In this document: positions 6,812 to 31,958 of the stretch, piece after piece
How positions within the stretch are numbered: the first letter of the stretch is position 1
Layout of the letters: each line of letters opens with the position of its first letter
Made by a program: the position numbers and the translations under genes
The notes under the pieces: model-generated
Seen by the model: the letters and a program-made list of their open reading frames with translations, nothing else
The model's database searches: none
What the model was told of the DNA's origin: nothing
From: Bacteroidia bacterium
Lineage (GTDB): Bacteria; Bacteroidota; Bacteroidia; SpSt-205
Length of the DNA stretch: 36,244 nt
Direction of reading: 5' to 3'
Assembly: GCA_025059915.1 (NCBI GenBank)
Contig: JANXDD010000005.1
Location: 1 to 36,244, forward strand

Positions 6812-7328
6812 TGGTAGTCGTCGTAGTGCGCGGCTCCTCTCCAACAAAGTCTGTTACTCGCTCTTCACTGCGCCTTAGGAGGCTGCCATCCCGTTCCAAT
6901 AGAGCTTGAGCTTGACTTACTCTATTCGGAAAAACCTGCTGATAGGCACACAGGAGGGTATCTAACAGATTGCAAGTGCTATCTGTCAAAAGGGCATAGA
7001 AGAGGGTGCCGTCGGGAGACATTAGCTCTATGAACCAGAGCTCTCGGGCCTCTGGTCCTTTCCAGCGACCAATGGGAGCATACACGCCCACAGGTAGCAC
7101 CTGCTTTTTGAGCCATTCTTGCACCTCTGGAGAAAATGGATCCATGGACCGTCCTGAGGGAATTTGCACAGGAGGGACTACGGGAGGAAGTCCATTTCTC
7201 AGCTCCTCACAGACAGAGGGACTACCGAGATTAAGAGGAGGGGCTTCTTCTGTCGGCGTAGAAGAAGGAGTAGGACTACAAGAACTTAGAAGGCATAAGA
7301 GCCCTGCCCATACATACCTGTAGGTCAT
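6759..7328 (-). CDS. Hypothetical lipoprotein
   Basis: MTYRYVWAGLLCLLSS-C lipobox, Pro/Ser/Thr linker after the Cys, own -7 promoter box 4 nt upstream. Confidence 0.8.
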   Translation of the reverse strand: MTYRYVWAGLLCLLSSCSPTPSSTPTEEAPPLNLGSPSVCEELRNGLPPVVPPVQIPSGRSMDPFSPEVQEWLKKQVLPVGVYAPIGRWKGPEARELWFIELMSPDGTLFYALLTDSTCNLLDTLLCAYQQVFPNRVSQAQALLERDGSLLRRSEERVTDFVGEEPRTTTTTSESRYQVDWAAGKLRRL

Positions 7329-7332
7329 GATA

Positions 7333-7340
7333 CAAACTTA
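7333..7340 (-). promoter_or_regulatory. Bacteroidota -7 promoter element TAAGTTTG
   Basis: Perfect TAnnTTTG, 4 nt before ATG 7328. Confidence 0.75.
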
Positions 7341-7365
7341 CGGGCTTTTTATGAGAATAGATGCG

Positions 7366-7373
7366 TAATATTG
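7366..7373 (+). promoter_or_regulatory. Candidate -7 element for glmS (TAATATTG)
   Basis: One mismatch to TAnnTTTG, 6 nt before ATG 7380. Confidence 0.45.
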
Positions 7374-7379
7374 CAAGCA

Positions 7380-9230
7380 ATGTGCGGTATCGTAGCTTAT
7401 ACGGGTTTCCGCAGCGCAGCGCCTCTCTTGATAGAGGGCCTTCGCCGGCTGGAATACCGGGGATACGATTCTGCTGGGCTCGTTACTCTCTCTAATGGTC
7501 AGTTCTGGCTTCGCAAGCAGGCAGGAAAAGTCTCAGCTTTGGCTCGTGTAACCGATGAGCGCTCAGTTCCCGGTACGGTTGGCATTGCTCATACTCGCTG
7601 GGCTACCCACGGCGCTCCCACCGATACCAACGCTCATCCCCATGTCAGCTATGATGAAAATCTCGTGCTGGTGCATAATGGCATCATAGAAAATCATGCT
7701 GCTCTGCGTGCGCGTTTAGAGCGGGAGGGCATAAGCTTTGTGAGCGAGACAGATACAGAGGTTTTAGCGCACTGGCTGGCGTGGATACGTCAGCAATATC
7801 CGACTGAGAGTTGGTCAGAGGTAATAAAGCGGGCTTTCGCTCACGTAGAGGGAACCTTTGGCATAGCTATTTTGGTCAAACAGGCCCCCGGGCTTGTGAT
7901 TTTGGTGAGGCGATTCAGTCCTCTCTTGATAGGATTAGGAAAGGGTGAATATATCGCTGCTTCGGATGCCACGGCTATTATCCCTTATACGCGGGAGGTG
8001 ATTCATTTGGAAGAGGATGAGGCTGCTCTTTTGCACCCAGACTTTTCGGAGCCAGAAATTTTCAGCCTGAAGGATAAGATACGCATTCCTCAGAGAGAGT
8101 ATATAGAGTGGGATGTAGCGGCGATTGAGCGGGGGGGCTATCCTCACTTTATGCTCAAAGAGATATTTGAGCAGCCTCAGGCTTTGCGTGAATGCATGCG
8201 GGGTCGGATTCGTCAAGAGCCTTTAGAGGTGCGGCTGGGAGGAATCAGTAGCGTAATGGACAAGCTCCTCTCTGCTTCTCGTCTCACTCTCGTGGGATGC
8301 GGAACCAGCTGGCATGCTGCCTTAGTTGGGGAATATCTGATAGAGCAGTTAGCTCGCGTCCCTGTGGAAGTTGAATATGCTTCAGAGTTTCGTTACAGGG
8401 ACCCCGTTATTTTGCCAGGCGATGTTGTTATAGGTATAAGTCAAAGTGGGGAAACCGCTGATACTTTGGCTGCCCTTCGCATGGCAAAAGCCCGAAATGC
8501 CCTCATTTTAGGCATCACGAACGTAGTAGGTTCCAGCATTCCACGTGAAACCCACGCAGGGATATACATTCATGCAGGTCCTGAGATAGGGGTGGCTTCT
8601 ACAAAAGCTTTTACGGCTCAGCTTACAGCGCTTACGCTTTTTGCCCTACATCTGGGAGCTGCTCGGTATGTCATAGACCGCAGCCTTCATGACCTTTTGA
8701 TAGAAACGCTTCTTGGGCTGCCTGACTTGGTAGCGCAGACCTTAGAACGGCTAAATGAGCCTGCCTTACACGTTGCTGAGCAGCTTGTCTCTGCGACAAA
8801 TGTGTTCTACCTGGGGCGGGGATATAACTTCCCAGTGGCTTTAGAGGGTGCTCTCAAGCTTAAGGAGATTGCCTACATTCATGCGGAGGGCTATCCTGCT
8901 GCTGAGATGAAACACGGCCCCATAGCGCTGATTGACAAAGGAATGCCAGTGGTAGTAATTGCTCTGCGGGACAGCCTTTATGAAAAGGTGCTGGGAAATA
9001 TCCAAGAGGTACGCGCCCGAGGGGCAAAAGTCATAGCTATTGCCACAGAGGGGGATGAACACATTCGTTCGTATGCGGAGGAGGTTCTGTACGTGCCAAA
9101 AGTACCTGAGCCTCTATCTCCAATTTTGGCCGTACTTCCGCTCCAGCTTTTAGCCTACCATACAGCGGTCTTACGCGGATGCGATGTAGACCAACCGCGC
9201 AATCTGGCTAAGTCAGTAACAGTAGAGTAA
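7380..9230 (+). CDS. glmS: Glutamine--fructose-6-phosphate aminotransferase (isomerizing)
   Basis: N-terminal MCGI (catalytic Cys1), LEYRGYDSAG, HTRWATHG, SQSGETADT, VASTKAF, C-terminal PRNLAKSVTVE. Confidence 0.99.
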   Translation: MCGIVAYTGFRSAAPLLIEGLRRLEYRGYDSAGLVTLSNGQFWLRKQAGKVSALARVTDERSVPGTVGIAHTRWATHGAPTDTNAHPHVSYDENLVLVHNGIIENHAALRARLEREGISFVSETDTEVLAHWLAWIRQQYPTESWSEVIKRAFAHVEGTFGIAILVKQAPGLVILVRRFSPLLIGLGKGEYIAASDATAIIPYTREVIHLEEDEAALLHPDFSEPEIFSLKDKIRIPQREYIEWDVAAIERGGYPHFMLKEIFEQPQALRECMRGRIRQEPLEVRLGGISSVMDKLLSASRLTLVGCGTSWHAALVGEYLIEQLARVPVEVEYASEFRYRDPVILPGDVVIGISQSGETADTLAALRMAKARNALILGITNVVGSSIPRETHAGIYIHAGPEIGVASTKAFTAQLTALTLFALHLGAARYVIDRSLHDLLIETLLGLPDLVAQTLERLNEPALHVAEQLVSATNVFYLGRGYNFPVALEGALKLKEIAYIHAEGYPAAEMKHGPIALIDKGMPVVVIALRDSLYEKVLGNIQEVRARGAKVIAIATEGDEHIRSYAEEVLYVPKVPEPLSPILAVLPLQLLAYHTAVLRGCDVDQPRNLAKSVTVE

Positions 9231-9237
9231 GCTCCTA

Positions 9238-10746: not shown

Positions 10747-10767
10747 AGTTTGCTTACTTCGTTGCCC

Positions 10768-11184
10768 ATGTACCGCAATCAAGCCATAGAAATAGATGTA
10801 GATGGCTCTTGGCAAGAAAATGGCTATGTGGGCTACGGACTGGTAGTTCGGCAAGATGGAAAAGAAGTATACCGAGAAGGGGGGCGGGTTCCCTCAAATG
10901 ATCCTGACCTTCAGGCTCATCGGCAGATTGGGGGGGAAATCTATGCTGTTGTGCAAGCGGTGCGCTGGTGCCTCCGCCATAAAGTAAAAGCTTGTACCAT
11001 CTATCATGATTACGAGGGCTTAGCTCGCTGGGCGCGTGGAGAGTGGAAAGCTAAAACTACGCTGACCAAGCGCTACGTGGATTTCCTCCGCCGAGCTGGT
11101 GTGGAGATAGAATGGGTGAAGGTGCCAGCCCATGCGGGGCTGGTATGGAATGAGATAGCGAACAAGTTAGCCATGGGCTCCTGA
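10768..11184 (+). CDS. rnhA: Ribonuclease HI-like protein (single domain)
   Basis: VDGS, GGEIYA, YHDYEG, W..G.WKA, KVPAHAG..WNEIANKLA. Start chosen at ATG 10768. Confidence 0.85.
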   Translation: MYRNQAIEIDVDGSWQENGYVGYGLVVRQDGKEVYREGGRVPSNDPDLQAHRQIGGEIYAVVQAVRWCLRHKVKACTIYHDYEGLARWARGEWKAKTTLTKRYVDFLRRAGVEIEWVKVPAHAGLVWNEIANKLAMGS

Positions 11185-11196
11185 GGACTTCCGTTT

Positions 11197-12147: not shown

Positions 12148-12153
12148 GGCTTT

Positions 12154-12906
12154 TTATGAAGTGGCAGCGTAATGGGCGGCGATTTCCTCTGTCATAGCGA
12201 GGTTGTGATACACCTTTTGAACATCATCGTGTTCCTCCAGCTGCTCTATCAGGCGAAGGGCTTTTTGGGCTTCTTCCCAGCTGAGTTGCACATATGAGCT
12301 GGGAACCCAAGCCAGGGAGGCTTCTTCTGGTTCAATCTTGAGCTTTTCCAGGGCTTCTTGGAGGGCTCCGAAGCTCTCGTAGCTACAAGTTACTACGGCT
12401 GTATCTTCACTGATTTCCACATCTTCTGCGCCTGCTTCTATCATGGCTTCTAAGAAGGTTTCTTCTTGGGGAATTCTTTCGGCGGGGATAGTGAATACTC
12501 CTTTTCGGGAGAAAAGATAAGACACGGCGCCCGAGGTGGCGAGGCTACCCCCTCCGCGGGAAAAAAGCGTCCTAAGCTGAGAAACTGTGCGGTTCGTGTT
12601 ATCGGTCATGGCTTCAATCAGGACAGCTACGCCGCCAGGCGCATAGCCTTCATACATGACTTCTGTGTAGTTTTCTGCGCCAGAGTCGCCTTTGGAAATA
12701 GCGCGTTCAATCACATCCTTAGGCATATTGGCGCGGCGAGCGTTCTGAATAGCCAAACGCAAACGCGGGTTGAAGTCTGGGTTAGGGCCGCCCTCTCGTG
12801 CTGCTACCGTGATTTCTCGCACCAGTCGGGTGAAAAGCGCTCCTCTTTTCGCATCCACTATGGCTTTTTTTCGTTTTATCTGCGCCCATTTACTATGACC
12901 CGCCAT
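12154..12906 (-). CDS. yebC: YebC/PmpR family protein
   Basis: The conserved N-terminus MAGHSKWAQIKRKK fixes the start at 12906; also NPRLR, YEGYAPGG, TDNTNRT, DDVQKVYHN. Confidence 0.97.
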   Translation of the reverse strand: MAGHSKWAQIKRKKAIVDAKRGALFTRLVREITVAAREGGPNPDFNPRLRLAIQNARRANMPKDVIERAISKGDSGAENYTEVMYEGYAPGGVAVLIEAMTDNTNRTVSQLRTLFSRGGGSLATSGAVSYLFSRKGVFTIPAERIPQEETFLEAMIEAGAEDVEISEDTAVVTCSYESFGALQEALEKLKIEPEEASLAWVPSSYVQLSWEEAQKALRLIEQLEEHDDVQKVYHNLAMTEEIAAHYAATS

Positions 12907-12910
12907 ACAA

Positions 12911-12918
12911 CAAAGATA
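12911..12918 (-). promoter_or_regulatory. -7 promoter element TATCTTTG (yebC-purC)
   Basis: Perfect TAnnTTTG, 4 nt before ATG 12906. Confidence 0.78.
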
Positions 12919-12929
12919 CAAAGCCTCTC

Positions 12930-14324
12930 TTAGCGGCTCTTTCTAAGAATATGATAGGCAAATCCACCCACTATTCCCATTCCTGCGGCAGTCATGAAGA
13001 GACGCCATTCCATGCTTTCTGCGCATAGAGGCTCCATGAAGGTTACAGCGAGTGCAGGTAAGGTAGCTCCTGCGATTGTAAGTCCCAGGCGCAGCGCCCC
13101 CCGAAAGCTATACCCCATAGTAAGGGATAAAGCCGTCATGCCTCCATAGGCAAGGAGGGTAGTCCATGCGCTGGCGATGTATCCAAACCTTGGAATGCCA
13201 TATAGATTCCCCATCCAAGTTATCAGACTGCCGACGGCTGTGATGACTATGCCGGGGGTTGGGGTCTTTTTGAGCTTGTACCAAATAGAGGCTTGGATGA
13301 GAGAGCCAGCAAAAAGATTTGCCCATAGAAGGATAGGCACCACTTTGAGCGCTTCATGATAAGCTGTAGGGAAGAGCGGTTTAGGAAGCAGTCCCCCCCA
13401 CTGCGTTGCTAAAAGCGGTTTTGTCCATAGGGTGAGAAAAATCACCCCAATAGAGGCGATGGTGTGATATAAAATCCAGCTTCGGTGGAAAAATGAACTG
13501 TCTCCCCGGTATTCGCCCAGCAGGAGCGGCTCTCCCGCTTGACGATACGCTTGAACAAAAAGCGCCAAAGCCATCGCCGCTTTATATGCAGCTCCATAGA
13601 GAGCAGTTTCTACCAAACTGTACCGAGCCAATAAAATGCGGTCTAATACATCGTTTGTAGCGCCAAGGAGGCCCATGATAGCCAGAGGAACCCCATACTG
13701 CAGAAGTGTGAAAGCTGACGGTGCCTCTGAGGGAGAAGGAGGCGGTCCCCACGCAAGCCCCCATATAAGCCGCAGCGCAGAAGAGAAAAGATTAGCCCCG
13801 AGAATAAACTCCACCCCATAGCCCTGGATACCTACGCCCCATATATTGAGTAAAAGAAAGGTGCCTACATGTCCTATTTGGATTGCGGCAAATCGCAGAG
13901 GCGAGCCTATCGCTCTCTGATGCGCCAAAGTAAAACTGCCCCAAGCATCTACCATCCATATGCTTATAGCCAGCCAGAGAAGGGCTTCTCTCCCCTTATA
14001 CCCTAAGGCTGGAGAAATAAAAGGCACTGCCAGAGCAAGAGGAAAGTTGAGCAGAAGCCCGCTCAGGAGAAGTAGTCGCATCACTCGCCAGAAGGTGCCG
14101 CCTAACTGCTCCTTTCTGCCGAAGCGGAAATACGCTGTCTCCATGCCCAAGCCCGTAGCTATGAGTCCAAAGGCAATCCACGAGTACAATTCAGACAGGC
14201 GCCCGTAGTCTTCTACAGGGAGCCTATGTACATAAAGGGGAGTAAGGAGCCAGTTGAGAAGGCGAGCAGTAGCACTGGTAAGCCCGTAAATCGCTCCATG
14301 ATACAGGAGCCTTCGTAGAGACAC
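12930..14324 (-). CDS. MOP-superfamily polysaccharide/oligosaccharide flippase
   Basis: AIYGLTSATARLLNWLLTPLY, GMETAYFRF, LDRILL, YGAAYK, FVQAYRQAGEP and about 12-14 hydrophobic segments. GTG 14324 preferred because the listed TTG at 14330 lies inside the promoter box. Confidence 0.85.
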   Translation of the reverse strand: MSLRRLLYHGAIYGLTSATARLLNWLLTPLYVHRLPVEDYGRLSELYSWIAFGLIATGLGMETAYFRFGRKEQLGGTFWRVMRLLLLSGLLLNFPLALAVPFISPALGYKGREALLWLAISIWMVDAWGSFTLAHQRAIGSPLRFAAIQIGHVGTFLLLNIWGVGIQGYGVEFILGANLFSSALRLIWGLAWGPPPSPSEAPSAFTLLQYGVPLAIMGLLGATNDVLDRILLARYSLVETALYGAAYKAAMALALFVQAYRQAGEPLLLGEYRGDSSFFHRSWILYHTIASIGVIFLTLWTKPLLATQWGGLLPKPLFPTAYHEALKVVPILLWANLFAGSLIQASIWYKLKKTPTPGIVITAVGSLITWMGNLYGIPRFGYIASAWTTLLAYGGMTALSLTMGYSFRGALRLGLTIAGATLPALAVTFMEPLCAESMEWRLFMTAAGMGIVGGFAYHILRKSR

Positions 14325-14327
14325 GCT

Positions 14328-14335
14328 CAAAGGTA
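14328..14335 (-). promoter_or_regulatory. -7 promoter element TACCTTTG (flippase)
   Basis: Perfect TAnnTTTG, 3 nt before in-frame GTG 14324. Confidence 0.65.
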
Positions 14336-14500
14336 GGAGACTACAGGGGTACTGTCTCGTATGCTATCGCCAGTTTTTTACCGCACAGCTGATGAGCGTA
14401 CGCAGGGGCTACAGGAAAAGGGCTTCAGGGCTGGTATGAGATTACGACTTCTTATAAGCAATTACCGCTGAGAGTGGCTTTTTGAGGGCTTACGAAAAAG

Positions 14501-14621
14501 GTAGTAGATAAGCTAAACTACGTTGAGTACTTCTGTCAGGCTATGCAGCCCTTATGAAGGAAGCAGCTGTGGTAGATAAGCTGAACTACGCTAAGTATCT
14601 TGTAGCTTTGCAGCCTATATG
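14501..14621 (+). repeat. Imperfect direct repeat (two units of about 55 bp, 68-bp period), each containing an 18-bp dyad GTAGnTnAGCTnAnCTAC
   Basis: 14501 gtagtagataagctaaactacgttgagtac...gctatgcagcccttatg versus 14569 gtggtagataagctgaactacgctaagtat...gctttgcagcctatatg. Confidence 0.85.
14603..14610 (+). promoter_or_regulatory. -7 promoter element TAGCTTTG (thrS)
   Basis: Perfect TAnnTTTG, 8 nt before ATG 14619. Confidence 0.7.
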
Positions 14622-25600: not shown

Positions 25601-26847
25601 AGGTAAAATACTACAGAGTCACGTGAGCGGGCCCCTGGATGTCGCAGTACTCGGGCATATACTTCATTAGCGTTGTTGTCAGGGTTTTGACCGCTGACGG
25701 CGATACCTGGGTTGAAAAGCCGCCCTCCACGAGAAGGAAGATTTTCTCCTAAATCCACTAATCCCACGGCATTGCGGGTGTTCTGCGCAACTGCATTGGC
25801 TCGGTTAGTAACCCATACCTCTATACGAGTGATATTGATGGGAGAGCTAACTACAGGGAGGGTGGAAAGGGATTGCTCATATAAAGAGCGGAAGAAGTGG
25901 TTGAGAAAAAAATGCCGGTTGAAATCGTAGTCGCTGGCTTTTTTGACGCGCTCTTGGCGCTGACCTCCTGCTCGGACGACAACCTCTTGACTTTTGCTGC
26001 GCTGCTGAGATGCCAACGCCGTAACGAAAACAGAGCCAAATTGCATTCTTGTTTTGATGCCCCACAGGTTTTGTCCTCCTGTGATGAGAGTGCCACCCAA
26101 AGGAAGCCCCACATTCCCTGCTTCTATGCTCTTGATAATGTCATCCTCGTAGCCTTGGTACTCTATTTTGAACTGATTCTCAAAGCTAAAGCCTGTCTGA
26201 GTGTCCCAGTTAAGGCGGAGCTTGAGTTTTTCGCCGATGTTGCCTATAACATTGAGCTGGATTTGCTGATTGAAGGCGAGGTTAGTATTGCGCTGCTGGC
26301 GGATAGTGAGAGCTGGATTGCGCATGCGATTGCTGCGCAGAGACAAGTCCAGTAGGACATTGATATTGGGGCGAATATCCACCCGCCCGCTTCCAAAAAT
26401 ATCTCTGAAAAGCTCGCTATTGATGTTTATAGGGGGGACGAGGCCGGAGAGGGACTGTGTAGTGGGGGTGGTACCTGGACGATTTGAAGTGGAGCTAAGC
26501 TGGGCCTCGCGGCTGCGGCGCTCTAAATACTGGCGAGTGAAGCGCCTGGCCTGGATTTTTTCATACTCCTCCCGACTGATGTAGGAAGGCGGGCGAATAG
26601 TCTTACCTCCTATGCGCTCATACACCCAATACCCTTTTCCATCAGGTGTAAGTTCATACACCACCTCATAATTGCTTGGGGGAGGTAACATCCATGGAGG
26701 GGACGGAATGTATCGCCCTGTTACATCAGCGGGCGAATCGCGAAATCTGGTACGAACGGTGTCTCCTGGCTGAGCTTTTAGCCATTCTACGACACCGAAC
26801 GCGTATAAGATTAAAACTCTACTCTTTAGGGAGAGCCGAAGCGGCAC
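19627..26847 (-). CDS. sprA: Type IX secretion system translocon SprA (Sov)
   Basis: 2406 aa; FRDIFG, IGEKLKL, YQGYEDDIIKSIEAGNV, WDLMMKNVY, YIDDFEG, FWLMDPF, EDINLD, VWVNELR, SFSPLVG, C-terminal beta-strand QFRFSLTN. Confidence 0.96.
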   Translation of the reverse strand: MPLRLSLKSRVLILYAFGVVEWLKAQPGDTVRTRFRDSPADVTGRYIPSPPWMLPPPSNYEVVYELTPDGKGYWVYERIGGKTIRPPSYISREEYEKIQARRFTRQYLERRSREAQLSSTSNRPGTTPTTQSLSGLVPPININSELFRDIFGSGRVDIRPNINVLLDLSLRSNRMRNPALTIRQQRNTNLAFNQQIQLNVIGNIGEKLKLRLNWDTQTGFSFENQFKIEYQGYEDDIIKSIEAGNVGLPLGGTLITGGQNLWGIKTRMQFGSVFVTALASQQRSKSQEVVVRAGGQRQERVKKASDYDFNRHFFLNHFFRSLYEQSLSTLPVVSSPINITRIEVWVTNRANAVAQNTRNAVGLVDLGENLPSRGGRLFNPGIAVSGQNPDNNANEVYARVLRHPGARSRDSVVFYLSQEGLVNGQDFELVENMRRLNENEYFVHRQLGYISLNISLQPNDAVFVAYEYTLAGDNTVYRVGEFSIDQPADPQNSNVLFLKMLKPQAIRPTLNNQPYPTWDLMMKNVYRLDAFNIRPEGFDLQIVYEATDGSGDILYLPSADTREKPLLQVVGLDRLRNNMEAGPDNVFDFIPQVTVFPDRGIIVFPVLEPFGRHLVRQFVTDPVNDSIKYAYDPLYRLTQVDAVQYYPQLNRFKLKYSFLASTGAEINLNTPQIQPGSIRVTAGGAPLTEGVDYQVDYTIGKVTILNQGILQSGQEIRVRFESNVLFGIDQKTLVGGRVEWRPSQRFQLGATGLSFYERPLINKVIISEEPAANIMWGIDANLQERSRFLSALLNSLPFYSTKEESEITFKGEFAQLRPGIPRQVVTGGERGIAYIDDFEGLRNVLDLTQWTQWKLASTPPSLRPSDPNPLSANFTRAALSWYFIDPEFYNRPSTFGLNDQSPALNSHYTRRVEPAEIFPNRTIAAGSNILTTFDLYYRPQERGPYNYNANPNALNPDGTFRNPQTNWAGIMRRVIGNTDFEAANYEFIEFWLMDPFLDNPSAQGGDLYFNLGQMSEDVLPDNRRAYEHGLPTRAEDDAANLNLTLTPWGRVPNIQIPTLAFDNDPNARQFQDVGLDGLRSEAERNFFSSYLSQLQNVLSPEAYQQVLNDPSSDDYAHFRDISSPSILERYKRFSGLEGNSPIPRPNEPFTRQASALPDVEDINLDGTLNTQEAFYSYRVSLRPQDLVVGRNYIVDKRELEVKLPNGSTVTTRWYLFRIPLSAGTPVGGIQNFKAIDFIRMYLTNFDREVVLRFGKLELVSTMWRRALINLNQRDETLLPDPAGDPTKFETGTMNIEENGSRQPFPYVLPPNILRQPIPGSPIAGLLQNEQSLVMRVCNLADGDGRGVFRTFNYDLRFYERLRLWAHAEPLVGSPIPPNVSQLGDVTLFIRIGTDYSDNYYEYEVPLQLSQPGNLSVENIWANNIDIRLEDLNFVKVLRDEARQRQNFPINQVFTYTLPNGSRISVKGTPQLNNVKTILIGIRNPDDGRGPICVEVWVNELRVTNYNTRPGWSTSGVLNVRLADLGNLSVSGSMSTPWFGSIEQKVGQRSTEWQQRYTLTGGLQLHRLLPQKAGLEIPAFFTYGESFTRPLYSPYDPDVLTRTRLEAQSNLSQRDSLERILTSYSRTYSYTFAGVRKTYVNPQAKKRFWHLQNFLFSYGYNETYTRNPQTEYLFNRQYTGSIAYNYNFQSKPFKPFGKLKPALLRDFSISYLPAQVGWRVEGNRQYQEQKLRPIGGGPQVRPTFYQNFLLNRQYVLQWNLTPSLNLNYNATVQARVDEPEGPINTPEKRDSLWNNFLSFGKDPARGKFHRINFGRTLNFQQNITATYRLPLNKIKWTDWINSSVTYTADYRWMTAALGQERFGNTISNSRNIQVTGQFQLSSLYKKVKFIDKLLTPPPKRNIFSQADTSRKQGDDPYIAARQIGRVIGKIIFGIQNVDVTYSRQQGTTLPGFLPRPANFGLDWDYTDSVTGVRSQAPGWGFILGEQPDLQGGWLQTNARKGWFTRDPRFTLPFQQTRSTQLNVRAGITPVKDLRIDLTLTRNESFTRGGLFGWDTLQQDFAFSNPSAQGSFSMSFLGARLLALGQRDRSYERLEGEYRYIFSTRLRLSNPFYESVLGPNAVLTRRDYWNGYTGSQQDVLTLAFLSAYGPYNPNRMSLSPFPSIPLPNWNVSYTGLSQIPFFKERFRTVTLNHAYRGTYTASYVLNLRAADRNRDGFSESIQPIQSPLDTLPGLTVYNFEPVFVINAVSIQESFSPLVGFNIAWKNGMNTTIELRRSRTTTLNVGALQLNQNKNTEFSFTWNWRRESFLQPFSLFGRTFELKNSATFRIEITYRSLINQNRQIDNPIFTQPIGGTRSFTIKPAVDYSISTQLTVRAYIEHTRNRPVLSNSFPTSFTAVGVQFRFSLTN

Positions 26848-26865
26848 AAATAAAAATAGCCGCTA

Positions 26866-26873
26866 CGAAGTTA
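26866..26873 (-). promoter_or_regulatory. Candidate -7 element for sprA (TAACTTCG)
   Basis: One mismatch to TAnnTTTG, 18 nt before GTG 26847. TAACTTCGTAGC nearly matches TAACTTTGTAGC at 27301. Confidence 0.5.
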
Positions 26874-26888
26874 TAGAAGGAGCGCTAT

Positions 26889-27044
26889 TTAGTACACGTG
26901 ATTGTCCACTCGGGTCGCTGGGCAAGAACCGCTTCGCATCCACACTGACCGCCCACCCGCTCGTCCAGAGGCACAGGCTTCCAGAAGAATGGCTACCGCC
27001 ATGAATGTAAGTACAACTAAACTTGTTTTACGGATTTTGCGCAT
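26889..27044 (-). CDS. Small lipoprotein (51 aa precursor)
   Basis: MRKIRKTSLVVLTFMAVAILLEA-CASGRAGGRSVWMRSGSCPATRVDNHVY: basic n-region, hydrophobic h-region, lipobox Cys24. Promoter box 4 nt upstream. Confidence 0.75.
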   Translation of the reverse strand: MRKIRKTSLVVLTFMAVAILLEACASGRAGGRSVWMRSGSCPATRVDNHVY

Positions 27045-27198
27045 ACAGCAAATATACGCTCTCTTCACGATATGAGTTGCAAGGGCAAGGAGTTCGTACC
27101 TTATGGCGTTTGCGATGGGCACTGGAGAGAGAACATCCCGCTATCAAAAAGGCCAAAATGCCCCCGAGAACTAACCTATACTTCCTCCAGGCTATCAC
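27028..27198 (-). CDS. Small lipoprotein (56 aa precursor), absent from the ORF track
   Basis: Manual translation: MIAWRKYRLVLGGILAFLIAG-CSLSSAHRKRHKVRTPCPCNSYREESVYLLYAQNP*. Lipobox IAGC. Start GTG 27198, or in-frame ATG 27201. Confidence 0.72.
   Translation of the reverse strand: MIAWRKYRLVLGGILAFLIAGCSLSSAHRKRHKVRTPCPCNSYREESVYLLYAQNP
27049..27056 (-). promoter_or_regulatory. -7 promoter element TATATTTG
   Basis: Perfect TAnnTTTG, 4 nt before ATG 27044. Confidence 0.7.
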
Positions 27199-27200
27199 CA

Positions 27201-27221
27201 TGCAAAGGTATTCACTTTGCA
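27201..27221. promoter_or_regulatory. Inverted repeat TGCAAAG-N7-CTTTGCA overlapping a minus-strand -7 box (TACCTTTG, 27203-27210); candidate operator
   Basis: Perfect 7-bp arms seen directly; the operator role is inference. Confidence 0.5.
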
Positions 27222-27300
27222 GGATTTGAAAAAGGGGGTATTAGGTCCATTCCCACATTTTGACCAGAGTAAGGGAGCTTTTTTGATGCTGGCTATTTTG

Positions 27301-27308
27301 TAACTTTG
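27301..27308 (+). promoter_or_regulatory. -7 promoter element TAACTTTG
   Basis: Perfect TAnnTTTG, 4 nt before GTG 27313. Confidence 0.75.
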
Positions 27309-27312
27309 TAGC

Positions 27313-27870
27313 GTGAGGGGGTATCATCTCGGCAAATTCGTTTTGGGGGGCCTTCTTCTGGTTATATCGTGTAAGCGGGAGAAGAAGGACGCAACAGAGG
27401 ACATCGGACATGCTCCTGTGACGACGATAGAGGTTTGGCTTATCAAGGGTGCAGATACGATTAGAGGGCGCTATAAGGATCCAGATGGCCCGGGGGGGCG
27501 GCCTCCTGCGATTGATACCCTTCGTCCGCGAGCAAACGAAACTTACACTTATGTCTTACGCATTCTGGATGAGAGCGGTAATCCTACGAAGGATCTTACG
27601 GAGCTTATATTCTCCCAGCAGAAAAATACTCATCGTATGTTCTTCTTTCCTACTCCAGAGGAGTTAGTGACTATACAGATAGGGGATACAGATGATTTCG
27701 GGCGTCCCGTCGGGGGGCGAGGCACTTGGCGTCAAGGAATTGATACAATCAGAGAGGGAATCGTCCGATTTCTTCTGCGGCATTACCTAAATCCGGCCGA
27801 TAAAGATTTCGGGCTGGAGCGTGGTAGTACAGATTTAGATGTCAGGCTTCCCATAAGAATCCAAAACTAA
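27313..27870 (+). CDS. Conserved Bacteroidota lipoprotein of unknown function
   Basis: Lipobox LVIS-C followed by KREKKD; motifs VTTIEV, DPDGPGG, HRMFFF, LRH, GSTDLDV resemble a widespread Bacteroidota lipoprotein family. Confidence 0.8.
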   Translation: MRGYHLGKFVLGGLLLVISCKREKKDATEDIGHAPVTTIEVWLIKGADTIRGRYKDPDGPGGRPPAIDTLRPRANETYTYVLRILDESGNPTKDLTELIFSQQKNTHRMFFFPTPEELVTIQIGDTDDFGRPVGGRGTWRQGIDTIREGIVRFLLRHYLNPADKDFGLERGSTDLDVRLPIRIQN

Positions 27871-27880
27871 ACGATAGTGT

Positions 27881-28255
27881 ATGAGGCTTAAACTGAAGAA
27901 GCGCCTGCATGCGGAGGGATTGCGTTGCACGCATCCTCGCCGGTGTATTCTGGAGGCTTTGGAAAAGGGACCTAAAACCCATGCTGAGCTTCTCCGAGAT
28001 ACCCAGCTGGATAGAGTAACTATCTACCGCAATCTTATCGCGCTTCAGAGGACGGGGCTCGTGTATAAGGTGTACTTGCCAGGGCACGAGCCTGTGTATG
28101 TGCTTTGCGAGAGTGAAGGTCCTACACACGCCCATTTTTTCTGTCAGAAATGTCGTAAGGGTATATGCCTTCCCCCTAATATTGTGCAGATAGCGGAGCC
28201 ATGGGCTTCTCGCACGGAAAGAGTTTTTCTACTGGGCAGCTGCTCGGAGTGCTAA
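27881..28255 (+). CDS. Fur family transcriptional regulator
   Basis: THPRRCIL, helix DRVTIYRNL, HAHFFCQKC and C-terminal GSCSEC (two CxxC structural Zn motifs). Confidence 0.9.
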   Translation: MRLKLKKRLHAEGLRCTHPRRCILEALEKGPKTHAELLRDTQLDRVTIYRNLIALQRTGLVYKVYLPGHEPVYVLCESEGPTHAHFFCQKCRKGICLPPNIVQIAEPWASRTERVFLLGSCSEC

Positions 28256-29533
28256 AAGGGCTTCCCCTACGAGATAGACGCTCCCGGTAACCAGGATGGT
28301 TTGACATTCTTGGGAAGCGGCTGCTAAGGCATCTGCGACACTTCTGAAGGCCCTTCCTTTATAGCCAAGGTGGGAGGCTATTTCGGCGAGATGGGGGGCG
28401 GGGAGTGCCCGTGGATTGTCAGCTTGGGTGAAATAAACTGGCCCTTGCCAACCGCCAAAGGCGTGGAGAGCTCCTTCTATGTCCTTGTCTGAAGAAAAGC
28501 CTATCACGAGCCCTTCTATGGTCTGAGGGGCATTTCGCACGAGGCGGCGCAGAGCTGCAAAGCCAGGGGGGTTATGCGCCACATCCAAAAGATAGGTGTG
28601 AGTCTCGGAGCGAATCCACTGCCCCCGCCCATATAGAGGAGCTAAGCGCCCTGCCGAAGCGATGCCCTCCTTTATCGCCTCTTCATCCACTGACCATCCT
28701 AAATCCCTAAGACGCTCTATAGCTGTTATAGCAGTGGCGATATTGACAGCTTGATAGTCCCCTGTAAGATCGCAGAGATGAGAGGTACTTGTCATTTCCT
28801 CCGTAAATACCCGGTAGTAAGTCTGCGGTCCCTCCATCCAAGCCGCAGGAGATAAACGGCGATGTACTTCTGTAAGGGGTGCGTTTTGGTTATGAGCCAC
28901 TTCCCTGAATACCTCATACACTTCAGGATGCTCTTGCTGAGCTACTACAACTGGACGCTCTGGTTTGATAATCCCTGCTTTTTCTCGGGCAATATGAGTG
29001 AGGGTGGGTCCTAACACTTCTACGTGGTCCCAGCCAATAGGAGTTATCACAGCGAGCAGGGGAGTAACTATATTCGTAGCATCCCATCTCCCCCCTAATC
29101 CTACCTCTACGACAGCCACATCCACCTTGGCATCTGCGAAATACGCTAAGCTCATTCCTACGGTAGCTTCAAAGAAGCTGAGCTGGAGCTCTTCTATCGC
29201 AGCCCTCCAGCGAGAAAGAAATTCATCTACCCATTCTGCTGGTGGCTCTTCTCCATTGACACGCATGCGTTCTGTGAAGCGCCACAGGTGGGGTGATGTA
29301 TGAAGCCCTACCCGATATCCTGCAGCGCGGAGGATGGAGGCTATCAAAGCAGAAGTAGAACCTTTTCCATTTGTACCAGCGATGTGGATGATAGGATAGC
29401 GGCGGTGCGGCGCTCCTAAGACCTCATCCCATCGTTTCATGAAGGCTAAAGTGGGATGAAGGGCTTTTCTCCCAGTTTGTTCATAAACTTTCAGGCGAGA
29501 GTACAGCCAGGCTTGCCACTCTGCGATGGACAC
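28229..29533 (-). CDS. folC: Bifunctional folylpolyglutamate synthase/dihydrofolate synthase
   Basis: HIAGTNGKGS, HTSPHL, SFFE, EVGLGGRWDATN, DH...LG, EKAGIIK, LDVAHNP, VTGSVYLVGE. Upstream TACCTTCG (29538-29545) lies 4 nt before the GTG. Confidence 0.97.
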   Translation of the reverse strand: MSIAEWQAWLYSRLKVYEQTGRKALHPTLAFMKRWDEVLGAPHRRYPIIHIAGTNGKGSTSALIASILRAAGYRVGLHTSPHLWRFTERMRVNGEEPPAEWVDEFLSRWRAAIEELQLSFFEATVGMSLAYFADAKVDVAVVEVGLGGRWDATNIVTPLLAVITPIGWDHVEVLGPTLTHIAREKAGIIKPERPVVVAQQEHPEVYEVFREVAHNQNAPLTEVHRRLSPAAWMEGPQTYYRVFTEEMTSTSHLCDLTGDYQAVNIATAITAIERLRDLGWSVDEEAIKEGIASAGRLAPLYGRGQWIRSETHTYLLDVAHNPPGFAALRRLVRNAPQTIEGLVIGFSSDKDIEGALHAFGGWQGPVYFTQADNPRALPAPHLAEIASHLGYKGRAFRSVADALAAASQECQTILVTGSVYLVGEALLALRAAAQ

Positions 29534-29564
29534 GAGGCGAAGGTAAGGTGTGAAGGATTTGGGC

Positions 29565-29572
29565 TACTTTTG
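29565..29572 (+). promoter_or_regulatory. -7 promoter element TACTTTTG
   Basis: Perfect TAnnTTTG, 4 nt before ATG 29577. Confidence 0.72.
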
Positions 29573-29576
29573 TGAG

Positions 29577-31268
29577 ATGAACCTTTATCTGAGCGATGTT
29601 CGGCGGCTTACTCTCTGGAATCGTCATGAGGCTCGTTTGCGAGAGGCTTTAGAAGCATGGCGTCGCCGAACCTACTGGTATGCTTTCCCTGAGGATCCAA
29701 AGGAGTATGGAGAAGAAGCAGCTGCTGAAGGTGAAGCTGCTTTTCGCTCTCAGTTGAATAAGCCTTTTGATAGGCTTAGGCAGTCTGCGCGCCGCTGGCT
29801 TTTGTCGGATGAGGTTTCACCCTACACCCGAGAGCCTTTGGGCATTTCTTACCCTCAAATGGAAGTTGCAGAGGCTCTCTTTCATGCGCAGGAAGCTTTG
29901 TCTCAGTGGCGATGGGTGCCGTACACTGAGCGGCTCGGTCTGCTGATGGAGTCTATTCAGCGCTTTTCTAAGCACTTTTTTGAGGTAGCGCATGCCACTA
30001 TGCACACGACGGGTCAGGCATGGATGATGGCATTTCAGGCATCTGGTCCTCATGCAGCAGACCGAGCAGTAGAGGCGCTGGCTGTAGCCTATGGGGAGCT
30101 TAGTCAGATTCCCTCGCAGGTTCAGTGGGTGCGAGATTTCGGAAAAGCTCAAGCAGTAGTTGAGAAATACTTCATTCCTCAGCCCGAGGGTATTTCGCTT
30201 CATATCGGCGTTTCTACTTTTCCCGTGTGGAATGTTCTGCCAGGATTATACGCCAGTCTGGCGGTCGGCAGTCCCGTCCTAATGAAGCCCCATCCCCGAG
30301 CTATTTATCCGATAGCGGTAGTAGTTTCTATCCTGCAGGAACTTTTTGAGGAGTATGGGCTTTCCCCTGCTATTGTACAGCTTCTTCCTGATACAGTTGC
30401 AGAGCCTATTACGAAAACCCTCGCTGAACATCCCCTCGTTCGCATCATAGACTATACGGGAGGCACAGAATTTGGGAACTACTTGGAAGGCCTGCCAGGG
30501 AAGGTAACCTTTTTAGAAAAAGCTGGCGTGAATGGGGTTTTGATAGAAAGTGTGGAAGATATGGAGGCTGTGGCTAAAAACCTTGCATTTTCCGCCAGCT
30601 TATACAGCGGTCAAATGTGCACCGCCCCTCAGAATGTATATATTCCTCGGGAAGGTGTTCGGACGCCACAGGGTGTGCTTTCCTACGAGGAAGTGAAAGC
30701 GATTCTTACAAAGGCGGTGGATGACCTCTCTTCTCATCCGAAGGCGGCACCGGCGATTCTGGGGGCTCTGCAGAATGATGCTGTCTCGGAGCGGATTGAG
30801 AAACTTGCAAGTACAGCGGCGGCAGTTCATCGGGCTCCGCAGGCGTACGCCCATCCGCAATACAAGGCTGCTCGCACTCTCACCCCCATCGTCGCTGAAG
30901 TAGCTTCTCCCGAAGATAAGGCAGCTCACACAGAGCATTTCGGTCCTCGTTTGCTTTTTATTCCCGTGGAGAGCCCACAGCGCGGCTTAGAGACCCTTTA
31001 TCAGCTTGCTCGGGAGAAGGGCATGCTCTCCTGTGCGATTTATACCACGGATTCAGACTTCAAGCAAAAAGCGATTCGCTTGCTCGCAGAAGCAGCGGTG
31101 CCCTTGAGCTTCAACTTCCGCGGACAGGTTTTTATCAATCAAAGTGTAGCCTTCTCGGACTTCCATGGTACTGGGGGGAATCCCGCAGGAAATGCATCTT
31201 TCACAGATGCCAGCTTTATTGTGAAGCGATTTCGTTGGATTGGAGTGCGGGACTGCCTACAGGCATGA
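29577..31268 (+). CDS. paaN: Phenylacetic acid degradation protein PaaN-type aldehyde dehydrogenase
   Basis: MHTTGQAWMMAFQASGPHAADRAVEA, TFPVWN, KPHP, IDYTG, EKAGVN, catalytic YSGQMCTAPQN, EHFGP, NQSVAFSDFHGTGGNPAGNAS. Confidence 0.88.
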   Translation: MNLYLSDVRRLTLWNRHEARLREALEAWRRRTYWYAFPEDPKEYGEEAAAEGEAAFRSQLNKPFDRLRQSARRWLLSDEVSPYTREPLGISYPQMEVAEALFHAQEALSQWRWVPYTERLGLLMESIQRFSKHFFEVAHATMHTTGQAWMMAFQASGPHAADRAVEALAVAYGELSQIPSQVQWVRDFGKAQAVVEKYFIPQPEGISLHIGVSTFPVWNVLPGLYASLAVGSPVLMKPHPRAIYPIAVVVSILQELFEEYGLSPAIVQLLPDTVAEPITKTLAEHPLVRIIDYTGGTEFGNYLEGLPGKVTFLEKAGVNGVLIESVEDMEAVAKNLAFSASLYSGQMCTAPQNVYIPREGVRTPQGVLSYEEVKAILTKAVDDLSSHPKAAPAILGALQNDAVSERIEKLASTAAAVHRAPQAYAHPQYKAARTLTPIVAEVASPEDKAAHTEHFGPRLLFIPVESPQRGLETLYQLAREKGMLSCAIYTTDSDFKQKAIRLLAEAAVPLSFNFRGQVFINQSVAFSDFHGTGGNPAGNASFTDASFIVKRFRWIGVRDCLQA

Positions 31269-31295
31269 GGGAAAGATAAAATGCGTTCCTTTTGG

Positions 31296-31303
31296 TATCT
31301 TTG
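31296..31303 (+). promoter_or_regulatory. -7 promoter element TATCTTTG
   Basis: Perfect TAnnTTTG, 4 nt before GTG 31308. Confidence 0.75.
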
Positions 31304-31307
31304 AGAA

Positions 31308-31958
31308 GTGAGGCTCATAATGCTTGGGCTTGGGGCGCTTTTGTGGGCACAGGAGCGCCCCCTGGTAAAGATTGGGAAGCTCCAATACGGGGGAGGGGGA
31401 GACTGGTATGGCAATCGCGCCTCGCTCTCTAACCTGCTAAAGTACGTCCAGCAGCATGCCCCTATTCCTGTCCAACTGCAAGAGGAAGTTGTTCGTCCAG
31501 CTGCACCTAACCTACATGAGTTTTCGCTTCTCTACGCTTCTGGCCATGGGAATATAGAGTTTTCACCCGAGGAAGTTGAGAATCTGAGAAAGTACCTTCT
31601 GCGGGGCGGCTTTCTCCTCATAGATGACGACTATGGCATGCATGAGTATGCCAAACGAGCACTTTTACAGATTCTACCCGAGGGGCAGTTTCAGCTTATC
31701 CCAGACAATCATCCGATTTTTCACTGCTACTACGACTTTCCGTATGGACTTCCCAAGGTTCATGAGCATGATAATAAAGCACCGCAGCTATATGGATTGT
31801 TTTATCAAGGGCGGCTGGTGGCAGCTCTTACCTATGAAGCGGACTTAGGGGATGGCTGGGAAGACCCGCAGGTGCATAAGGACCCTCCAGAAGTTAGAGA
31901 GCTGGCTTTTCGCATGGGCGTCAATATCTTATGCTACGTGCTGACACATGCATGGTGA
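31308..31958 (+). CDS. DUF4159 domain-containing exported protein
   Basis: Short signal peptide, YGGGGDWY, SGHG, YLLRGGFLLIDD, HPIF, GLPKVHEHD, DLGDGWED, MGVNI. Confidence 0.88.
   Translation: MRLIMLGLGALLWAQERPLVKIGKLQYGGGGDWYGNRASLSNLLKYVQQHAPIPVQLQEEVVRPAAPNLHEFSLLYASGHGNIEFSPEEVENLRKYLLRGGFLLIDDDYGMHEYAKRALLQILPEGQFQLIPDNHPIFHCYYDFPYGLPKVHEHDNKAPQLYGLFYQGRLVAALTYEADLGDGWEDPQVHKDPPEVRELAFRMGVNILCYVLTHAW

What the first reader, a model, noticed from the sequence alone, without database searches (positions are those of the whole stretch)
7328..31308. Promoter -7 box sits exactly 4 nt before the start codon at most operon heads: predicted pervasive leaderless mRNAs
Seen: perfect TAnnTTTG-N4-start at seven genes: 7328(-) TAAGTTTG-tatc-ATG, 12906(-) TATCTTTG-ttgt-ATG, 27044(-) TATATTTG-ctgt-ATG, 27198(-) TACCTTTG-catg-GTG, 27313(+) TAACTTTG-tagc-GTG, 29577(+) TACTTTTG-tgag-ATG, 31308(+) TATCTTTG-agaa-GTG. 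One-mismatch boxes at N4 precede folC (TACCTTCG) and the ACAD gene (TATTTTGG). Spacing is N3 for the flippase, N6 for glmS and TolC (mismatched boxes) and N8 for thrS. The 12-nt offset explains the recurring spurious Y-x-C-x-M extensions in the ORF track (YLCCM, YICCM, YFCEM). Known: TAnnTTTG is the Bacteroidota primary-sigma element, and transcription starts a few nt downstream of it; model Bacteroides and Flavobacterium mRNAs are mostly leadered. Inference: +1 coincides with the start codon (AUG and GUG), so this lineage would use leaderless initiation as a default. Caveat: starts 29577, 27198 and 14324 were chosen partly using the motif; yebC and the signal-peptide genes are fixed independently.
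Basis: partly seen in the sequence, partly recalled or inferred. Interest (0 to 1): 0.75.

Follow-up and report, generated by a model that had tools for sequence, protein, structure and literature searches.

The report
Promoter boxes abutting start codons
In this uncultured Bacteroidia bacterium the phylum's usual promoter box sits only 4 to 8 bases before the start codon of about two thirds of independently transcribed genes, so most of its messenger RNAs should begin at or next to the start codon, which is rare in every Bacteroidota species whose transcripts have been mapped.

Summary
All seven TAnnTTTG-N4-ATG/GTG sites are in the window as described. In the 2.04-Mb genome, 250 of 1409 boxes are followed by ATG or GTG at exactly 4 nt, against about 40 expected. 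TTG and CTG are not enriched there.

Published mapping puts the box at -12 to -5, so N4 places +1 on the first base of the start codon. The -1 pyrimidine, +1 purine and near absence of TTG starts fit this.

Of 414 divergently transcribed gene heads, 44% carry a perfect box at N3-8. With one-mismatch boxes the figure is 70% raw, about 64% after my correction. Exact N4 alone covers 22-35%, not "most".

All 17 genomes of the family show the signal. Most other Bacteroidota genomes scanned do not. A second family (f93) does, and several others do weakly.

Mapped Bacteroidota have only a few percent leaderless mRNAs. No RNA data were available, so leaderless transcription remains inferred.

This scan has noted the same phenomenon before on other genomes. 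I found no paper reporting it.

The parts
7326..7340 (-). TAAGTTTG box, 4-nt spacer, ATG of a 189-aa gene (6759-7328) with no family hit. It is divergent from glmS; the two start codons are 51 nt apart.
   Evidence: no Pfam or NCBIfam hit
12904..12918 (-). TATCTTTG box, N4, ATG of yebC/pmpR (12154-12906). The start is fixed by homology.
   Evidence: NCBIfam NF001030 aligns profile positions 1-242 to residues 1-244. Box-N4-ATG is kept in the two closest relatives, L001 and L002.
14322..14335 (-). TACCTTTG box, N3, GTG of a 464-aa gene (12930-14324).
   Evidence: no family hit
14603..14621 (+). TAGCTTTG box, N8, ATG of thrS (14619-16535). Predicted leader of about 4 nt.
   Evidence: TIGR00418
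16547..16561 (+). TATTTTGG (one mismatch), N4, ATG of an acyl-CoA dehydrogenase gene (16559-18019). Marginal support.
   Evidence: This variant class is only weakly enriched, 7 against 3.9. Family hits.
27042..27056 (-). TATATTTG box, N4, ATG of a 51-aa putative lipoprotein gene (26889-27044).
   Evidence: The lipobox-like LLEAC is read from the translation. No Pfam hit.
27196..27210 (-). TACCTTTG box, N4, GTG (or N1, ATG at 27201) of a 56-aa putative lipoprotein gene (27028-27198).
27301..27315 (+). TAACTTTG box, N4, GTG of a 185-aa gene (27313-27870).
   Evidence: no family hit
29531..29545 (-). TACCTTCG (one mismatch, the commonest tolerated variant), N4, GTG of folC (28229-29533). It sits back to back with the paaN promoter.
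   Evidence: TAnnTTCG is 37 against 4.4 at N4 genome-wide. TIGR01499.
29565..29579 (+). TACTTTTG box, N4, ATG of paaN (29577-31268). Its start codon is 43 nt from the folC start codon.
   Evidence: TIGR02288 aligns profile position 3 to residue 12.
31296..31310 (+). TATCTTTG box, N4, GTG of a DUF4159 gene (31308-31958).
   Evidence: PF13709

Best explanation
The TAnnTTTG element is the -7 box of the Bacteroidota primary sigma factor. In mapped species it spans -12 to -5. A start codon 4 nt downstream of its G therefore has its first base at +1, and RNA polymerase would make an mRNA that begins with AUG or GUG (leaderless). Spacings of 5 to 8 nt would give leaders of 1 to 4 nt.

Such mRNAs have no room for any upstream ribosome-binding signal. 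They must be recognised through the 5'-terminal start codon and initiator tRNA, as in mycobacteria, Deinococcus and archaea.

In this genome, and in all 17 genomes of its family, this is the majority arrangement for the first genes of transcription units. Genes inside operons lack both the box and any Shine-Dalgarno signal, and are presumably translated by the usual SD-independent Bacteroidota route or by coupling.

Shown: the sequence architecture, its statistics, its conservation and its taxonomic spread. Inferred: the transcription start position and the mode of translation.
For: 1. Sharp peak. Of 1409 boxes, 184 ATG and 66 GTG lie at offset 4, against about 20 each in the background. TTG (15) and CTG (12) are not raised.

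2. Gene-level counts. Among 1552 genes with complete 5' ends, perfect boxes before a candidate ATG/GTG/TTG start number 21, 200, 63, 51, 47 and 27 at N3 to N8. The background, counted for ATG/GTG candidates, is about 9 per offset.

3. Geometry. The box is at -12 to -5. T-12 to G-5, with the start site 4-5 nt after the box.

4. Promoter-like context in 197 N4 sites. G is avoided at the two n positions (0.10 and 0.06), as in F. johnsoniae. Position -1 is a pyrimidine in 78%, and +1 is A 0.74 or G 0.26. Positions -20 to -17 are A/T-rich.

5. Start codons at N4 are ATG 147, GTG 52 and TTG 1. This matches the RTG-only rule for leaderless initiation shown in mycobacteria.

6. In the N7 set, purines peak at spacer positions 5 and 6 (70% and 81%). 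This fits a start site at a fixed distance from the box.

7. The box marks heads of transcription units. A perfect box at N3-8 occurs in 183 of 414 divergent heads (44%), against 84 of 739 genes lying under 25 nt behind a same-strand gene (11%).

8. The N4 codons are real gene starts.
- 139 of 200 are the first start codon of their ORF.
- In the 76 cases with at least 15 open codons upstream, coding potential drops from +0.277 downstream to -0.196 upstream. Controls give 0.388 and 0.393.
- The yebC start is homology-fixed.

9. Conservation. Of 29 orthologue pairs with aligned N-termini in another genus (G014), 21 have a perfect box at N3-8 and 2 have a one-mismatch box. All 17 genomes of the family (G000 and 16 others) have 298-462 N4-7 ATG hits, against 16-69 for the reversed pattern.

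10. There is no SD alternative. SD-like 4-mers occur at -18 to -5 in 8% of 508 operon-internal genes, against 14% in a control window.
Against: - No transcript 5' ends are mapped for this organism or any relative, so every statement about +1 is extrapolated from other Bacteroidota.
- No fixed -33 element is visible. This is also true of F. johnsoniae.
- 126 of 414 divergent heads have no box within N3-8 even allowing one mismatch. Of 218 heads without a near box, 161 have no perfect box within 200 nt. A sizeable minority therefore uses other or degenerate promoters.
- About 9 perfect boxes per offset at N10-30 exceeds my rough estimate of about 1 per offset by chance, so leadered transcripts exist too.
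- My gene calls come from a home-made dicodon caller, not a validated tool.
- One-mismatch counts carry roughly 8-10% false positives per gene. This is my estimate, operon-internal class.
- GUG is a poor leaderless initiator in E. coli, yet 26% of N4 starts are GTG.
Confidence: 0.8

Rival explanations
1. The boxes next to start codons are real promoters but minor ones. Most transcripts of these genes would come from upstream promoters or read-through and carry ordinary leaders, so leaderless mRNAs would be a side population.
For: 84 of 739 genes lying under 25 nt behind a same-strand gene also carry a perfect box at N3-8, for example yebC, 23 nt behind the previous gene. Read-through transcripts with 'leaders' must therefore exist for some. 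Boxes at N10-30 exceed my rough estimate of chance.
Against: The median start-to-start distance of 207 divergent pairs is 71 nt, and 90 pairs are at most 60 nt apart. This leaves no room for another promoter plus a leader. Of heads that lack a near box, only 57 of 218 have any perfect box within 200 nt, so additional upstream perfect boxes are not common. Box proximity is conserved across genera.
Confidence: 0.1
2. UAnnUUUG acts in the RNA as a translation-initiation signal a few nucleotides before the start codon (for example a U-rich bS1-binding site), and transcription starts further upstream.
For: Bacteroidota use non-SD, AT-rich upstream signals. Full-length bS1 is present.
Against: - The motif is identical to the DNA -7 box, including avoidance of G at the n positions.
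- It is largely missing from operon-internal genes, which also need translation signals: 11% against 44%.
- The -1 pyrimidine, +1 purine and exclusion of TTG starts are start-site or leaderless features, not RBS features.
- A 4-nt spacing is shorter than the non-SD motifs described.
Confidence: 0.04
3. The pattern is chance, compositional bias or start-codon mis-calling.
For: The total box count in the window is only mildly above shuffles (25 against 17.0; 6 of 100 shuffles reach 25).
Against: The offset histogram uses no gene calls and shows about a 6-fold peak for ATG plus GTG at one offset only. Reversed-pattern controls give 10 against 185. Coding potential changes at the N4 codon. The window binomial is P = 8.5e-6.
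Confidence: 0.01

Closest known systems
Bacteroidota primary-sigma (sigma-ABfr type) promoters: the -7 element TAnnTTTG, with or without a -33 TTTG. Known from B. fragilis, F. johnsoniae, F. psychrophilum, B. thetaiotaomicron and S. copri.
   Same: Same box consensus, including avoidance of G at the two n positions. A/T-rich stretch near -18, and a -33 element that is weak or absent as in F. johnsoniae. The expected start site 4-5 nt after the box fits the -1 pyrimidine / +1 purine signal.
   Different: In mapped species the box is followed by a leader. The median is 24 nt in F. psychrophilum and 32 nt in B. thetaiotaomicron, and the mean is 33 nt in F. johnsoniae and 69-76 nt in S. copri. Leaderless mRNAs are a few percent. 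Here the start codon follows the box directly in roughly two thirds of transcription-unit heads.
Leaderless-dominant bacteria: Deinococcus deserti (60% of mRNAs, 47% exact), mycobacteria (about one quarter), and GeneMarkS-2 'group C' genomes.
   Same: A promoter's downstream element lies at a fixed short distance from the first gene of an operon and is absent before internal genes. Only ATG or GTG is used at the 5' end. The leaderless share is comparable to or above these cases.
   Different: Those lineages use a Pribnow-type -10 box read by a sigma-70-type factor, 6-8 nt from the start. Internal and leadered genes there use SD sites. Here the box is the Bacteroidota -7 element at 4 nt, and SD is not used at all. 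GeneMarkS-2 placed 408 of 450 Bacteroidetes/Chlorobi in group B. Its Table S4, which lists the rest, is a PDF that I could not read.
Archaeal leaderless transcription (GeneMarkS-2 'group D')
   Same: Leaderless as the default for operon heads: 60-80% of operons in many archaea.
   Different: There the signal is a TATA box about 26 nt upstream, with archaeal or eukaryote-like initiation factors.
Earlier notes of this scan on other genomes (e1-725000, e1-1505980, e1-4919251, e1-5117251)
   Same: They report the same box-next-to-start architecture in uncultured Bacteroidia. These are AI notes and I did not check them.
   Different: They concern different genomes and windows. I did not test whether those genomes belong to families f1 or f93.

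Membership tests
Bacteroidota sigma-A (sigma-ABfr type) -7 promoter element | Consensus TAnnTTTG, with T, A, T, T, T, G nearly invariant and G disfavoured at the two n positions | tested here: met
   In 197 N4 sites G is 0.10 and 0.06 at the n positions. The main tolerated variant is TAnnTTCG, 37 against 4.4.
Bacteroidota sigma-A (sigma-ABfr type) -7 promoter element | Transcription starts 4-5 nt downstream of the box G (box at -12 to -5) | not testable with these tools
   No RNA data. Indirect support only: -1 pyrimidine 78%, +1 purine 100% by construction, and a purine peak at spacer positions 5-6 in the N7 set.
Bacteroidota sigma-A (sigma-ABfr type) -7 promoter element | A -33 TTTG element upstream | tested here: not met
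   No position from -60 to -21 exceeds 0.06 bits in the aligned N4 set. The same was reported for F. johnsoniae, so this feature is not strictly required.
Bacteroidota sigma-A (sigma-ABfr type) -7 promoter element | Located before first genes of transcription units rather than before internal genes | tested here: met
   44% of 414 divergent heads against 11% of 739 close same-strand followers.
Leaderless-dominant genome (GeneMarkS-2 group C-like) | A promoter element at a fixed short distance from the start codons of first genes in operons, in a large share of operons | tested here: met
   N4 peak; 44% perfect and 70% with up to one mismatch at N3-8 among divergent heads.
Leaderless-dominant genome (GeneMarkS-2 group C-like) | 5'-terminal AUG or GUG only (no UUG or CUG) | tested here: met
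   N4 starts are ATG 147, GTG 52, TTG 1. TTG and CTG are not raised at offset 4.
Leaderless-dominant genome (GeneMarkS-2 group C-like) | Mapped start sites coincide with start codons | not testable with these tools
   No RNA run was listed for the window stretch.
Leaderless-dominant genome (GeneMarkS-2 group C-like) | Pribnow-type -10 box as the promoter signal | tested here: not met
   The signal is TAnnTTTG, not TATAAT. The genome works like group C but with the Bacteroidota box.

The most novel reading that the evidence does not exclude
Whole lineages of Bacteroidia have made leaderless or 1-4-nt-leader mRNAs the default for transcription-unit heads. These are this order (17 f1 genomes plus a sister family whose peak is shifted to N5-N7) and, separately, family f93, a low-GC family in the same class. 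Housekeeping genes such as rpsA and rpsU are included. The standard Bacteroidota ribosome is kept (anti-SD present, bS21 and bS1 present). That would mean the SD-independent Bacteroidota ribosome is intrinsically good at initiation from a 5'-terminal AUG or GUG. It would also mean that promoter-start fusion has arisen more than once within the phylum, perhaps along with very short divergent intergenic regions (median 71 nt here).
Probability: 0.6. Interest if true: 0.7.

Novelty: new variant of a known kind. Interest (0 to 1): 0.6.

Why it matters
Bacteroidota are the textbook case of bacteria that ignore Shine-Dalgarno pairing yet keep leadered mRNAs. How their ribosomes pick start codons is still being worked out. 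Lineages in which most first genes have no leader would be a natural experiment, because start-codon selection there cannot depend on any upstream mRNA sequence.

Practical consequences:
- Gene callers that prefer the longest ORF add false N-terminal extensions here, such as the Y-x-C-x-M tails.
- In these genomes the box-start rule gives a cheap way to place start codons and promoters together.
- SD-based feedback on rpsU, described for Flavobacterium (introduction passage), cannot work the same way here, because rpsU has a box at N6 and no SD.

The claim remains a prediction until 5' ends are mapped.

Tried and rejected
- RNA evidence: the look-up of sequencing runs on window:24500-34400, kind rna. 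No RNA holder was listed.
- 16S of the window's own genome: none found in a 96%-complete MAG. I used two same-genus genomes instead. No 16S was found in the f93 or f2 genomes.
- GeneMarkS-2 supplements. Table S4, the per-species group lists, is a PDF that cannot be read here. The Word supplement has no mention of Bacteroidetes, FCB or Chlorobi. Whether any Bacteroidetes were put in group C is therefore unknown to me.
- Family-exclusive trait: rejected after the class scan and the G451 histogram.
- A special ribosome (lost anti-SD, lost bS21 or truncated bS1) as the cause: not supported.
- G137 (f33) looked enriched in whole-genome pattern counts: N4 128 against control 33, and N14 56 against 28. 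Its first 163 kb gave a flat histogram. I leave it undecided.
- The one-mismatch boxes of glmS and the OEP gene are not supported by variant statistics.
- I considered a scan of metagenome contigs for transcript-like contig ends but did not run it, because the odds were low.
- I did not compare sigma-factor, IF2 or IF3 sequences.
Full report
THE OBSERVATION

The window holds 25 TAnnTTTG boxes, against 17.0 +/- 4.4 in dinucleotide shuffles. All seven claimed box-N4-start sites are there, at the stated coordinates and strands. Seven of 25 boxes followed at exactly 4 nt by ATG or GTG has a binomial probability of 8.5e-6 at p = 2/64.

- folC: 29533 GTG, N4, TACCTTCG
- an acyl-CoA dehydrogenase gene: 16559 ATG, N4, TATTTTGG
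- 14324 GTG, N3
- glmS: 7380 ATG, N6, TAATATTG
- an outer-membrane efflux gene: 2639 ATG, N6, TAACTTTC
- thrS: 14619 ATG, N8

Gene identities were checked with NCBIfam and Pfam. YebC, PaaN, ThrS, GlmS, FolC, PurC, an acyl-CoA dehydrogenase, OEP, SprA and DUF4159 were confirmed. The 'flippase' at 12930-14324 had no hit. The YebC profile aligns from position 1 to residue 1, which fixes that start independently of the motif.

THE GENOME-WIDE TEST

The genome is 2.04 Mb in 202 contigs, 51% G+C and 96% complete.

Without any gene calls, I counted what follows each of its 1409 boxes.
- At offset 4 there are 184 ATG and 66 GTG, against about 20 each at offsets 10-39.
- TTG (15) and CTG (12) are not raised.
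- 218 of the ATG/GTG open an ORF of at least 80 aa.
- Offsets 5 to 8 are raised less (72, 55, 51 and 31 with an ORF of at least 80 aa, against a background near 12).

I then called genes with a simple dicodon model. This gave 1684 genes, 1552 of them with a complete 5' end.
- 200 genes have a perfect box at N4 of a candidate start, and 399 have one at N3-8.
- 139 of the 200 N4 starts are the first possible start codon of the ORF.
- Where the frame stays open for at least 15 codons upstream (76 cases), the per-codon coding score is -0.196 upstream and +0.277 downstream, and it is lower upstream in 89%. At 1058 control internal ATG/GTG codons the values are 0.393 and 0.388.

The N4 codons therefore behave as real gene starts.

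WHY THIS MEANS LEADERLESS

In F. psychrophilum the box occupies -12 to -5. In F. johnsoniae the invariant bases are T-12, A-11, T-8, T-7, T-6 and G-5, with the start site 4-5 nt after the box. A start codon 4 nt after the G therefore begins at +1.

The aligned N4 sites carry further promoter marks that were not part of the search pattern.
- G is avoided at the two n positions (0.10 and 0.06), as in F. johnsoniae.
- Positions -20 to -17 are A/T-rich.
- Position -1 is a pyrimidine in 78%.
- The next base, the first of the codon, is always a purine (A 0.74, G 0.26).

Start codons at N4 are ATG 147, GTG 52 and TTG 1. [quoted passage not shown]

In the N7 set, purines peak at spacer positions 5 and 6 (70% and 81%). 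This fits a start site set by the box and a leader of 1-3 nt. The share of GTG starts falls as the spacer grows: 26% at N4, 22% at N5, 14% at N6, 9% at N7 and 7% at N8.

No fixed -33 element is visible. The same was reported for F. johnsoniae.

HOW PERVASIVE IT IS

Divergently transcribed genes must each have their own promoter. Of 414 such heads:
- 91 have a perfect box at N4
- 92 have a perfect box at N3 or N5-8
- 53 have a one-mismatch box at N4
- 52 have a one-mismatch box at another spacing
- 126 have none

That is 44% perfect and 70% with up to one mismatch. Correcting the one-mismatch class for the roughly 8-10% seen among operon-internal genes gives about 64%; this correction is my estimate. 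Exact N4 alone accounts for 22% (perfect) to 35%.

Among 739 genes lying less than 25 nt behind a same-strand gene, 11% have a perfect box.

The only strongly tolerated variant is TAnnTTCG (37 at N4 against 4.4 background). The glmS and OEP variants are not enriched.

Leadered promoters also exist. Perfect boxes run at about 9 per offset at N10-30. By my rough estimate, chance would give about 1 per offset.

Intergenic space is very tight. The 207 divergent pairs have a median start-to-start distance of 71 nt, and 90 pairs are at most 60 nt apart. 47 pairs have perfect boxes on both sides. In the window, the folC and paaN start codons are 43 nt apart, with the two boxes back to back.

THE TRANSLATION APPARATUS

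SD-like 4-mers occur at -18 to -5 before 8% of 508 operon-internal genes, against 14% in a control window further upstream. SD is therefore not used, as elsewhere in the phylum.

The MAG has no 16S gene. Two genomes of the same genus do, and their 3' end keeps CCUCC.

bS21 is found in 16 of 17 family genomes. A full-length bS1 of about 577-601 aa is found in 15 of 17. Both are present in this genome.

These genes themselves have boxes next to their starts: rpsU at N6 with no SD, and rpsA at N7. Nothing unusual was found in the apparatus. I did not examine IF2, IF3 or the sigma factor.

TAXONOMIC SPREAD

The closest public YebC loci are from MAGs titled Bacteroidia or Bacteroidota bacterium. 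The two closest (88% and 78% identity) keep box-N4-ATG. More distant ones have leaders or no box.

Family and order:
- For TANNTTTGNNNNATG, the 17 genomes of the family (two genera, including this one) have 145-223 hits, against 3-23 for the reversed pattern.
- The order holds only these 17 genomes plus one genome of a second family, G017.
- In another genus of the family (G014, 200 kb fetched) the histogram peaks at N4.
- Of 29 orthologue pairs with aligned N-termini in G014, 21 have a perfect box at N3-8 and 2 have a one-mismatch box. Only 9 have the same spacer as here, so proximity is conserved and exact spacing drifts.
- The sister family genome G017 peaks at N5-N7 instead. Its counts at N4, N5, N7 and N14 are 55, 98, 110 and 37.

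Wider scans:
- Among 400 other genomes sampled across the phylum, none approaches this genome's 185 hits against 10 control in 2.04 Mb. The best density is G137 with 128 against 33. The best ratios are in family f60, for example 50 against 6.
- A class-wide scan for N4-7 (400 other genomes) shows most at ratios near 1-1.5.
- Family f93 stands out: three genomes of 2.9-3.0 Mb have 812-902 hits against 295-327.
- In 150 kb of one f93 genome (G451, 35% G+C) the histogram peaks at N4 (13, with 34 at N3-8, against a background near 2).
- Weaker enrichments occur in f15, f60, f95, f111, f83 and f3.
- A typical low-GC genome (G028, 400 kb, 712 boxes) is flat.

The trait is therefore patchy within the phylum. 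It is extreme in this family and in f93, and it is not typical.

WHAT IS KNOWN

Mapped Bacteroidota are leadered (passages read in each case):
- B. thetaiotaomicron: 3.7% of 5' UTRs are under 10 nt, and the median is 32 nt.
- F. psychrophilum: 5.5% leaderless, median 24 nt.
- F. johnsoniae: 87% of leaders exceed 10 nt.
- S. copri: 35-36 leaderless transcripts.

A 2011 survey that searched only for Pribnow-type signals found leaderless genes in 1 of 37 Bacteroidetes/Chlorobi genomes, and said it might miss other promoter types. GeneMarkS-2 placed 408 of 450 Bacteroidetes/Chlorobi in its non-SD group B. I could not read the table that lists the rest.

Leaderless dominance is known from Deinococcus deserti (60% of mRNAs, 47% exact; abstract), from mycobacteria (about a quarter) and from archaea.

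Four full-text searches gave no paper reporting a leaderless-dominant Bacteroidota lineage. I read listings, plus passages from the most relevant papers. One paper loosely calls leaderless initiation 'prevalent' in Bacteroidetes while citing the lack of SD.

This scan's own earlier notes describe the same architecture on other genomes. They are unchecked AI notes. They agree with my reading but are not independent evidence.

VERDICT

The interpretation, pervasive leaderless or near-leaderless mRNAs, is the best-supported reading (0.8). It stays an inference because no RNA data could be obtained.

This is a new variant of a known kind. Leaderless dominance is known elsewhere, but not with the Bacteroidota -7 box and not in this phylum, as far as my searches show.

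Noticed in passing
G017 (sister family f2, same order), whole genome: The box-to-ATG peak is shifted. Counts at N4, N5, N7 and N14 are 55, 98, 110 and 37, with reversed-pattern controls of 39-45. Many of the listed N7 spacers end in GCT, GCC or GCG just before the ATG. This suggests 1-3-nt leaders as the norm in that family.
   Followed up: partly
G451, G488, G519 (family f93, same class; loci L151-L159): A low-GC (35%) Bacteroidia family of MAGs shows an N4 peak as dense as this genome's. N4-7 ATG hits are 812-902 against 295-327 controls. In 150 kb there are 13 at N4 and 34 at N3-8. This looks like a second leaderless-rich family in the class.
   Followed up: partly
G000 contig C186:2633-2794 (-) and C11:10831-12318 (-): rpsU (bS21) has TATCTTTG-N6-ATG and no Shine-Dalgarno sequence. 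rpsA (bS1) has TACCTTTG-N7-ATG. The SD-dependent feedback on bS21 described for Flavobacterium could not work the same way here.
   Followed up: no
window 26889-27210 (-): Two tandem small ORFs of 51 and 56 aa, each with a signal-peptide-like start and a lipobox-like Cys (LLEAC, LIAGC), and each with its own N4 box. The box of the downstream ORF lies inside the 3' end of the upstream ORF. No Pfam hit.
   Followed up: partly
window 29531-29579 and 7326-7382: Back-to-back divergent promoters. The folC and paaN start codons are 43 nt apart, and the 7328(-) and glmS 7380(+) start codons are 51 nt apart. The upstream part of each promoter therefore overlaps the neighbour's box or coding sequence. 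Genome-wide, 90 of 207 divergent pairs are at most 60 nt apart.
   Followed up: partly
genome-wide (G000): TAnnTTCG is the one clearly tolerated box variant at N4 (37 against 4.4 background). The share of GTG starts falls steadily as the spacer lengthens, from 26% at N4 to 7% at N8.
   Followed up: partly
window 19627-26847 (-): A 2406-aa SprA (type IX secretion) gene. Its GTG start has only a weak one-mismatch box (TATTTTTA, N3). Its stop overlaps the start of a ligase-associated DNA-damage-response exonuclease gene at 18590-19627.
   Followed up: no
L145, L146 (16S of G008 and G010, same genus): The 16S 3' end reads GGATTACCTCCTTTCT. A TACTTTGA-like sequence lies about 65 nt before the mature 5' end. 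I did not analyse the rRNA promoter.
   Followed up: no
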